From IMG/VR virus record IMGVR_UViG_2537562192_000019: a DNA stretch of 31,970 nt; one strand, 5' to 3'. The position numbers were made by a program, and so were the translations under genes. Under the pieces are notes generated by a model. The model saw only the letters and a program-made list of their open reading frames with translations. It was not told where the DNA came from and did no database searches. Positions 373-683 of this stretch are shown piece after piece. Position 1 is the first letter of the stretch. Each line of letters opens with the position of its first letter. Source of the stretch: a virus. Its lineage: Duplodnaviria > Heunggongvirae > Uroviricota > Caudoviricetes.

Positions 373-679
373 ATGACTCAAGACTATGAACTGGTTGTGA
401 AAGGAGTCCGTAATTTTGAGAATAAAGTTACGGTAACTGTAGCCTTACAGGACAAAGAACGCTTTGACGGTGAAATTTTTGGCCTGGATGTCGCCATGGA
501 CCGTGTTGAAGGAGCTACGCTGGAGTTTTATGAGGCAGCAGCCAGAATGAGCGTCCGGCAAGTCTTCCTGGAAGTAGCAGAAAAATTGTCAGAAAAGTTG
601 AGTCTTATCTGCAGCATCAGTACTCCTTTAAGATTGAAAATCCTGCCAATAAGCACGAGCGTCCTCATCATAAATATCT

Positions 680-683
<4 letters not shown>
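373..683 (+). pseudogene. ydfR: YdfR-like small protein (DUF1327-type), reading frame broken by a 1-nt change in an A-run
   Basis: ORF 373..762 reads MTQDYELVVKGVRNFENK... and runs on into the lysozyme gene. Entering the alternate frame at 597 gives 28 more codons ([28 protein letters not shown]) ending at TGA 681..683, which overlaps the lysozyme ATG at 680 as ATGA; that restores a 103-aa product matching my memory of K-12 YdfR. The shift maps to the AAAA run at 593..596. Confidence 0.55.

What the first reader, a model, noticed from the sequence alone, without database searches (positions are those of the whole stretch)
590..683. ydfR-like lysis-cassette gene is frameshifted at an A-run and reads through into the endolysin gene
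As written the ORF runs 129 codons to 762, overlapping the endolysin by 83 nt. One extra A in AGAAAAG (593..596) would give a 103-aa product ending at a TGA that overlaps the endolysin ATG (CTATGA), a typical compact phage gene junction. The same AAAAG context could in principle support tRNA-Lys slippage, so a recoding event cannot be excluded from sequence alone.
Basis: partly seen in the sequence, partly recalled or inferred. Interest (0 to 1): 0.4.

Follow-up and report, generated by a model that had tools for sequence, protein, structure and literature searches.

The report
One-base deletion disrupts prophage gene ydfR
A small accessory gene (ydfR) in the lysis cassette of an E. coli Qin-type prophage has lost one A from a five-A run, which is a real, inherited and already annotated pseudogene allele in a decaying prophage, not a sequencing error or programmed recoding.

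Summary
The ORF at 373-762 (129 codons) is ydfR (DUF1327) of a Qin-type lambdoid prophage. It lies between the pinholin gene (153-368) and the SAR-endolysin gene rrrQ (680-1213). It has AAAA at 593-596 and runs 83 nt into rrrQ. Adding one A gives the canonical 103-aa YdfR, whose TGA overlaps the rrrQ ATG.

Among E. coli complete genomes carrying this gene, 1692 of 1798 records (94%) have five A in an otherwise identical 82-mer, and 46 (2.6%) have four A. All nine four-A copies I examined share two linked SNPs, so they belong to one haplotype. RefSeq annotates them as "frameshifted" pseudogenes. In six sampled four-A genomes an IS1 also replaces the end of ydfR together with rrrQ and rzpQ. The exact 129-aa product is recorded on 634 contigs, so this is not an error private to this assembly.

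Recoding is unlikely. Only an A_AAG tetramer is present, with no heptamer and no stimulator found, and such tetramers alone shift at roughly background (~0.15%). Two sequenced Qin-like phages (Tritos and HannyBb) carry an in-frame 103-aa ydfR. Residues 1-75, the conserved domain reported to bind RNase E, remain intact.

Verdict: ordinary and already known; low interest.

The parts
153..368 (+). Class II (P21-type) pinholin gene, essQ/essD-like, 71 aa
   Evidence: Pfam PF04971 Phage_holin_2_1, E=4.4e-34. The identical gene is annotated essD in RefSeq loci.
373..762 (+). ydfR as written: a 129-codon ORF made of the DUF1327 N-terminal domain (aa 1-75) plus a 54-aa out-of-frame tail
   Evidence: ORF list. 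Pfam DUF1327 matches aa 1-80 only. 100% identical to loci annotated 'DUF1327 domain-containing protein, frameshifted'.
593..596 (+). A4 run, the site of the one-base deletion (five A in the common allele)
   Evidence: Sequence. The alignment of the fetched 5-A copies shows a single-column gap here. Counts are 46 records with four A against 1692 with five A.
594..597 (+). A_AAG tetramer in the zero frame, the only slippery element; a -1 slip here would restore the wild-type frame
   Evidence: Codon phase. The simulated slip product equals the 103-aa protein. The preceding GAA codon does not complete an X_XXZ_ZZN heptamer.
597..683 (+). Ancestral C-terminal reading frame of ydfR ([28 protein letters not shown], then stop), still open and unchanged but now out of frame
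   Evidence: Frame translation. No substitutions here relative to the 5-A loci L009-L011.
680..1213 (+). SAR-type endolysin gene rrrQ, 177 aa; its first 83 nt (680-762) are overlapped by the frameshifted ydfR ORF
   Evidence: Pfam Phage_lysozyme, E=1e-23. Annotated rrrQ lysozyme in identical loci. SAR assignment is from reading the N-terminal sequence, not from a tool.
1210..1707 (+). rzpQ (DUF2514, Rz-like spanin component), last gene of the lysis cassette
   Evidence: Pfam PF10721, E=7.7e-39. Annotated rzpQ.

Best explanation
This is a genuine, heritable one-base deletion (A5 to A4 at 593-596) in ydfR. ydfR is the DUF1327 accessory gene that sits between the pinholin and SAR-endolysin genes of a full-length Qin-type lambdoid prophage integrated in ydfJ. 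The deletion shifts the frame after Lys75. The product keeps the conserved N-terminal domain (aa 1-75), loses the 28-residue C-terminal segment, gains 54 unrelated residues, and terminates 83 nt inside rrrQ instead of at the ATGA junction. It is a minority allele (about 2.6% of E. coli complete-genome copies) carried on one haplotype and spread by descent. It lies in a prophage that shows other decay. Shown: the deletion, its frequency, its haplotype, its annotation as a pseudogene, and the intact state in two sequenced Qin-like phages. Inferred: the change is neutral or mildly deleterious loss of function in a prophage no longer under selection for lysis. Also inferred: any restoration of full-length YdfR by ribosome slippage is incidental and near background.
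For: (1) Anatomy: searches confirm the four-A run, the 129-codon ORF and the 83-nt overlap, and that one added A gives the 103-aa protein with the ATGA junction.
(2) Population: the exact 5-A 82-mer is in 1692 of 1798 records and the exact 4-A 81-mer is in 46.
(3) Single haplotype: the window and all 8 sampled 4-A genome copies (9 sequences) share 365A and 517A, which the three K-12-like 5-A comparators L009-L011 lack. The 28 best hits to window:100-1300 are all 4-A, followed by 5-A copies differing by 1-2 further SNPs.
(4) Not an artefact: the exact 129-aa product is on 634 contigs and a one-residue variant is on 716. The genomes come from humans, pigs, ducks, a gull, water, soil and mussels.
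(5) PGAP marks the allele 'frameshifted' in every 4-A locus inspected.
(6) Decay context: six sampled 4-A genomes have IS1 replacing the end of ydfR plus rrrQ and rzpQ. Strain BL12 also has rzpQ frameshifted. The window itself has a 1,259-bp IS3-family element inside tail gene T.
(7) Two sequenced Qin-like phages, Tritos and HannyBb, match all 103 aa in one frame; in Tritos the five A, the 103-aa ORF and the ATGA overlap were read directly.
(8) Residues 1-72 of YdfR suffice for binding the RNase E catalytic domain (PMC13232886). Phage homologues align only over aa 1-74/77. The frameshift therefore removes only the variable tail.
Against: No raw reads for this particular assembly could be inspected. 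The window is not identical to any complete genome in the collection (best match 99.4% identity over 94% of window 1-25000). The A_AAG tetramer at the exact site is the most shift-prone tetramer in E. coli (PMC4066793), and a slip would yield a perfect wild-type protein, so a trace of full-length YdfR is physically plausible. The frameshifted tail also occurs on a 517G background (P0010, 48 contigs). All four allele combinations therefore exist, implying recombination or recurrence of the indel rather than a strictly single event.
Confidence: 0.9

Rival explanations
1. Homopolymer sequencing or assembly error in this window only; the true genome has five A and an intact 103-aa ydfR.
For: Single-base homopolymer indels are a common error class. 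The window itself is not present verbatim among the complete genomes. The exact restored 103-aa sequence exists on 31 contigs.
Against: The first 14.5 kb of the window is 99.9% identical to strain 2012EL-2448, which has the same four A. 46 complete genomes and more than 1,300 contigs carry the same allele together with its linked SNPs. A run of four is too short to be a typical error hotspot.
Confidence: 0.03
2. Programmed or 'corrective' -1 ribosomal frameshifting: tRNA-Lys slips from AAG (595-597) to AAA (594-596), producing functional full-length YdfR from the 4-A allele at a useful level.
For: The A_AAG tetramer is in the correct phase, and the simulated slip gives exactly the 103-aa protein. 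A_AA.G is the most efficient tetramer in E. coli, up to 5.6% with a strong pseudoknot (PMC4066793). Compensatory frameshifting on 'savior' indels is a documented class (PMC5009743).
Against: There is no X_XXZ_ZZN heptamer, because the P-site codon GAA cannot re-pair on AGA. By reading, there is no SD-like element in the 20 nt upstream. There is no notable downstream structure: -5.8 kcal/mol with z=+0.19, and -14.4 kcal/mol with z=-1.1. Tetramers without a stimulator shift at 0.147%, against 0.112% background. 94% of alleles are simply in frame, as are Tritos and HannyBb, so the two-frame layout is not conserved. AAAG is at chance frequency in the window. Caveat: the z-score test was also null at the IS911-like A_AAA_AAG site in this window, so it has little power.
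Confidence: 0.03
3. Selected attenuation of lysis: the deletion is advantageous to the host because ribosomes no longer terminate at the ATGA junction but run 83 nt into rrrQ in another frame, lowering endolysin synthesis from a potentially lethal cassette.
For: By reading, rrrQ has no recognisable Shine-Dalgarno sequence before ATG 680, so it could depend on upstream translation. The 4-A lineage later lost rrrQ and rzpQ altogether through IS1 in the six sampled genomes that carry it, which fits pressure against, or indifference to, the cassette.
Against: Phage mEp460 has the same SD-less endolysin leader with a 55-nt gap and no overlapping upstream gene, so coupling is not obviously required. 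The allele is rare (2.6%). No expression data exist. Neutral decay explains the same facts.
Confidence: 0.04

Closest known systems
E. coli K-12 Qin prophage ydfR (b1555, UniProt P76160), 103 aa, DUF1327 / 'YdfR family protein'
   Same: Same gene, same position (essQ-ydfR-rrrQ-rzpQ-cspI) and the same flanks. The window is 99.6% identical to MG1655 over 1.2 kb. Residues 1-75 differ at only three positions.
   Different: The window lacks one A of the A5 run, so it has a 129-aa chimeric ORF instead of 103 aa and has lost the ATGA stop/start junction. The window's prophage is the full-length form with head and tail genes, whereas K-12 Qin is understood (from general knowledge, not tested here) to be a deleted remnant.
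RefSeq 'frameshifted' ydfR pseudogenes, e.g. C7A04_RS26305 in E. coli 2012EL-2448 (NZ_CP027586.1)
   Same: Identical sequence over window 100-1300 and 99.9% over window 1-14571, with the same four-A run.
   Different: None at the locus itself. The window additionally carries an IS3-family insertion in tail gene T.
ydfR of the Qin-like phages Tritos (OV696610.1) and HannyBb (PP925841.1)
   Same: Tritos has the same holin-ydfR-endolysin-Rz order and is 96% identical in protein; HannyBb is 99% identical in protein.
   Different: Both match all 103 aa in one frame. In Tritos the five A, the 103-aa ORF and the ATGA overlap with the endolysin gene were read directly.
Bacterial -1 programmed frameshift sites (dnaX A_AAA_AAG; IS911/IS3 A_AAA_AAG or A_AAG; lambda G/GT G_GGA_AAG)
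   Same: Shares the A_AAG A-site slip element, with tRNA-Lys as the shifting tRNA.
   Different: There is no slippery P-site codon, no stimulator was found, and there is no conservation of two frames. In contrast, the window contains full heptamers at 14284-14290 (G_GGA_AAG in gene G) and 14903-14909 (A_AAA_AAG in the IS).

Membership tests
DUF1327 / YdfR family (Pfam PF07041) | Significant match to the family profile | tested here: met
   E=1.8e-41, 140.7 bits against a cutoff of 25, covering aa 1-80 of the 93-position profile. The match stops near the frameshift.
DUF1327 / YdfR family (Pfam PF07041) | Position immediately downstream of the class II holin gene and upstream of the endolysin gene in lambdoid lysis cassettes | tested here: met
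   Window order is 153-368, 373-762, 680-1213. The same order is seen in Tritos, mEp460 and Stx2 phage 86.
DUF1327 / YdfR family (Pfam PF07041) | Intact full-length reading frame (103 aa in the Qin subtype) | tested here: not met
   The frame is lost after Lys75. PGAP flags identical copies as frameshifted.
Pseudogene by homopolymer indel | Frame differs from the large majority of orthologues by a single-base indel in a mononucleotide run | tested here: met
   Four A against five A; 46 records against 1692 of 1798; a single-column gap in the alignment.
Pseudogene by homopolymer indel | Derived state confined to a related set of haplotypes, with other signs of decay nearby | tested here: met
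   All nine sampled 4-A copies share 365A and 517A. IS1 deletion of rrrQ and rzpQ in six sampled genomes. IS3-family insertion in gene T of the window. Caveat: the frameshifted protein also occurs on a 517G background (P0010).
Programmed -1 ribosomal frameshift site | Slippery motif in phase (X_XXZ_ZZN heptamer or Z_ZZN tetramer) | tested here: inconclusive
   The A_AAG tetramer is present in phase at 594-597. The heptamer is absent (A_GAA_AAG).
Programmed -1 ribosomal frameshift site | Stimulatory element (upstream SD-like sequence or downstream hairpin or pseudoknot at 5-9 nt) | tested here: inconclusive
   None seen: z=+0.19 and z=-1.1, and no GGAG-like sequence upstream by reading. The same z-score test was also null at the IS911-like site, so the test is weak.
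Programmed -1 ribosomal frameshift site | Two-frame organisation conserved among homologues | tested here: not met
   94% of E. coli copies and the phages Tritos and HannyBb are in a single frame.
Programmed -1 ribosomal frameshift site | Trans-frame product made at a meaningful level | not testable with these tools
   Needs a reporter assay or proteomics. Literature expectation for a bare tetramer is ~0.15% (PMC4066793).
Sequencing artefact | Variant private to one assembly | tested here: not met
   46 complete genomes. The 129-aa product is on 634 contigs, and a one-residue variant is on 716.
Phase-variable contingency locus (slipped-strand mispairing) | Long mononucleotide tract (typically 7 or more) with frequent ON/OFF switching among close relatives | tested here: not met
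   The tract is only 4-5 A. The 4-A state tracks a haplotype rather than scattering. The four-gamete pattern hints at at most rare recurrence.

The most novel reading that the evidence does not exclude
The A5-to-A4 deletion is a 'savior' indel. On this reading it is retained because it uncouples or dampens endolysin translation, or removes the YdfR C-terminal segment while leaving the RNase E-binding N-terminal domain. Low-level tRNA-Lys slippage at A_AAG would still supply a trace of authentic 103-aa YdfR. Occasional reversion (A4 to A5) would explain why all four combinations with SNP 517 exist.
Probability: 0.03. Interest if true: 0.4.

Novelty: already known. Interest (0 to 1): 0.1.

Why it matters
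It matters little beyond annotation hygiene. The 129-aa ORF should be annotated as a frameshifted ydfR pseudogene, not as a novel protein overlapping the endolysin gene. Several public records name it 'Qin prophage protein' or even 'lysozyme'. It is a tidy example of stepwise decay of a Qin-family prophage: a point indel in ydfR, then IS1 deletion of the endolysin and Rz genes in some genomes, and an IS insertion in a tail gene. The allele keeps exactly the N-terminal domain that a 2026 study found sufficient for RNase E binding, so natural 4-A strains could serve as ready-made C-terminal-swap mutants for anyone studying YdfR.

Tried and rejected
- Downstream RNA structure as a frameshift stimulator: folds of 598-650 and 598-690 are no better than shuffles. 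The same test at the IS911-like A_AAA_AAG site in this window was also null. I therefore treat this as weak evidence rather than proof of absence.
- Enrichment of the AAAG motif: 273 observed against 263 expected, which is uninformative.
- Translational coupling of rrrQ to ydfR as the functional consequence: weakened by mEp460, which has the same SD-less leader without an overlapping upstream gene.
- NCBIfam scan of the 129-aa product: no family hit.
- L002 (ECCWS199) was a poor comparator because it has a different holin allele and an IS in the endolysin gene, so it was excluded from the haplotype table.
- My first exact-tag search missed 7 of the 15 loci then held because of SNP 383. I redid it with an internal tag.
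- The literature search for 'ydfR' returned mostly papers on a melanoma cell line named YDFR. Only PMC13232886 was relevant.
- Not done, given the low stakes: host core-genome phylogeny, the large protein-database searches, and structure prediction.

Full report
**What is there**

Window 1-2300 holds a P21/Qin-type lysis cassette.
- A class II pinholin gene lies at 153-368 (PF04971, E=4.4e-34).
- The ORF in question lies at 373-762.
- A lysozyme-family endolysin gene lies at 680-1213 (PF00959). Its N-terminal sequence looks like a SAR signal by reading.
- An Rz-like DUF2514 gene lies at 1210-1707, followed by cspI at 2070-2282.
- Comparison with E. coli 2012EL-2448 shows the whole window is a full-length Qin-family prophage. 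It runs from the lysis cassette through terminase, portal, capsid, tail, tail fibre and pinQ to the interrupted host gene ydfJ.

- The ORF at 373-762 has 129 codons and overlaps the endolysin gene by 83 nt (680-762).
- The A-run is 593-596, in the codon context TCA GAA AAG TTG.
- Pfam DUF1327 matches only residues 1-80.
- Adding one A gives MTQDY...[35 protein letters not shown] (103 aa). Its TGA (681-683) overlaps the endolysin ATG (680-682).

**Population evidence**

- An 81/82-nt probe centred on the run finds the gene in 1798 records of the 5,426-genome E. coli complete-genome set.
- The five-A version matches exactly in 1692 records (94%). The four-A version matches exactly in 46 (2.6%).
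- The 46 come from unrelated projects and sources: human STEC and ETEC, the probiotic strain G3/10, pigs, ducks, an ivory gull, mussels, river water and soil.
- The exact 129-aa translation is recorded on 634 contigs in the 15-billion-protein collection. A one-residue variant (D4G) is on 716 more.
- This rules out an error private to this assembly.
- PGAP labels every four-A copy I opened as 'DUF1327 domain-containing protein, frameshifted'.

**One haplotype, and further decay**

- The window and the eight four-A genome copies fetched all carry 365A and 517A. The three K-12-like five-A comparators carry G at both positions.
- The 28 best matches to window:100-1300 are all four-A. The next matches are five-A copies with one or two extra SNPs.
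- The other 18 four-A genomes were not among those 28. The six of them I sampled have an IS1 that cuts ydfR at nt 293 and replaces rrrQ and rzpQ.
- Strain BL12 has an additional frameshift in rzpQ.
- The window itself has a 1,259-bp IS3-family element (14572-15830) inside tail-assembly gene T.
- This is the signature of a prophage decaying by small steps.
- A minor complication: the frameshifted tail also occurs on a 517G background (P0010, 48 contigs), and the restored 103-aa protein with 517A exists on 31 contigs. All four combinations therefore exist, so the indel has recurred, reverted or recombined at least once.

**Comparison with sequenced phages**

- Tritos and HannyBb match all 103 aa in a single frame.
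- In Tritos I read the five A, the 103-aa ORF and the ATGA junction directly.
- More distant homologues keep the gene directly after the holin. Examples are mEp460 (104 aa) and Stx2 phage 86 (268 aa).
- These homologues align only over residues 1-74/77 and have unrelated C-termini.
- The conserved unit is therefore the N-terminal ~75 residues, exactly what the frameshift leaves intact.
[quoted passage not shown] - Whether the 129-aa chimera is stable or active is unknown.

**Recoding**

The zero-frame AAG (595-597) preceded by A594 forms an A_AAG tetramer. A -1 slip of tRNA-Lys gives precisely the wild-type 103-aa protein.
- The preceding codon GAA does not complete a heptamer.
- I see no SD-like element upstream (by reading).
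- The downstream RNA folds no better than shuffled sequence: z=+0.19 for 598-650 and z=-1.1 for 598-690.
- That fold test is weak, because the IS911-like A_AAA_AAG site at 14903-14909 in this same window also scored z=-0.09.
- Sharma et al. measured bare Z_ZZN tetramers at 0.147% against 0.112% background. A_AA.G reached 5.6% only with a strong pseudoknot (PMC4066793).
- AAAG occurs 273 times in the window against 263 expected.
- Most important, the two-frame arrangement is not conserved: it is a rare derived allele of a gene that is normally in one frame.
- A four-base run is also far too short for useful transcriptional slippage (general knowledge; I did not retrieve a run-length figure from a paper).
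- I conclude that any slip product is incidental.

**Consequences (inferred)**

- Ribosomes translating ydfR no longer stop at the ATGA junction and instead cross the rrrQ start in another frame. This could reduce endolysin initiation.
- However, mEp460 has the same SD-less leader with no overlapping upstream gene. Dependence on coupling is therefore unproven.

**Verdict**

This is a real, inherited one-base homopolymer deletion that pseudogenises, or at least C-terminally scrambles, ydfR in a decaying Qin-family prophage. It is already annotated as such in RefSeq. It is ordinary and of low interest.

Noticed in passing
window 14572-15830: A 1,259-bp IS3-family (IS911-like) insertion sequence interrupts the T part of the lambda-like tail assembly chaperone gene G/GT; the element is absent from the otherwise 99.9%-identical prophage of strain 2012EL-2448. 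Its transposase matches the IS3 profile in three pieces (positions 1-85, 137-230 and 229-368), so orfB carries an extra frameshift beyond the programmed one. The prophage is therefore probably tail-defective.
   Followed up: partly
window 14284-14290 and 14903-14909: Two canonical -1 frameshift heptamers lie in the same window: G_GGA_AAG near the end of tail gene G (the lambda G/GT site) and A_AAA_AAG at the orfA/orfB junction of the IS. They make a useful contrast with the bare tetramer in ydfR.
   Followed up: partly
window 688-692 (A5 run just inside rrrQ); protein P0004: A 279-aa 'phage lysozyme family protein' on 19 contigs is a YdfR-endolysin fusion. It has the 4-A frameshift plus loss of one A from the run at 688-692, which puts the ydfR reading frame into the endolysin frame. 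This could be a real second indel or a homopolymer error in those assemblies.
   Followed up: no
loci L003-L008 (six sampled 4-A E. coli genomes, e.g. NZ_CP026202.1 10588-11611): The same IS1 insertion truncates the frameshifted ydfR at nt 293 and replaces rrrQ and rzpQ, leaving essD-ydfR'-IS1-cspI. This is a sub-lineage of the 4-A haplotype, also marked by SNP 383G.
   Followed up: partly
window 16954-17148 and 15831-16954 (tape-measure gene): Relative to 2012EL-2448, the 5' part of the tape-measure gene is only 95.6% identical, and about 190 nt fail to align. The rest of the prophage is 99.4-99.9% identical. This suggests a local recombination patch.
   Followed up: no
window 517 and 365; proteins P0010 and P0016: All four combinations of the indel (4-A or 5-A) with SNP 517 (A or G) exist in public data. 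This implies recombination within 75 bp, or recurrence or reversion of the homopolymer indel.
   Followed up: partly
window 30687-31970: The right end of the window is the host gene ydfJ lacking its N-terminus, which marks the prophage-host junction. It is preceded by pinQ (28761-29351, minus strand), ydfK and ynfT, as in 2012EL-2448.
   Followed up: no
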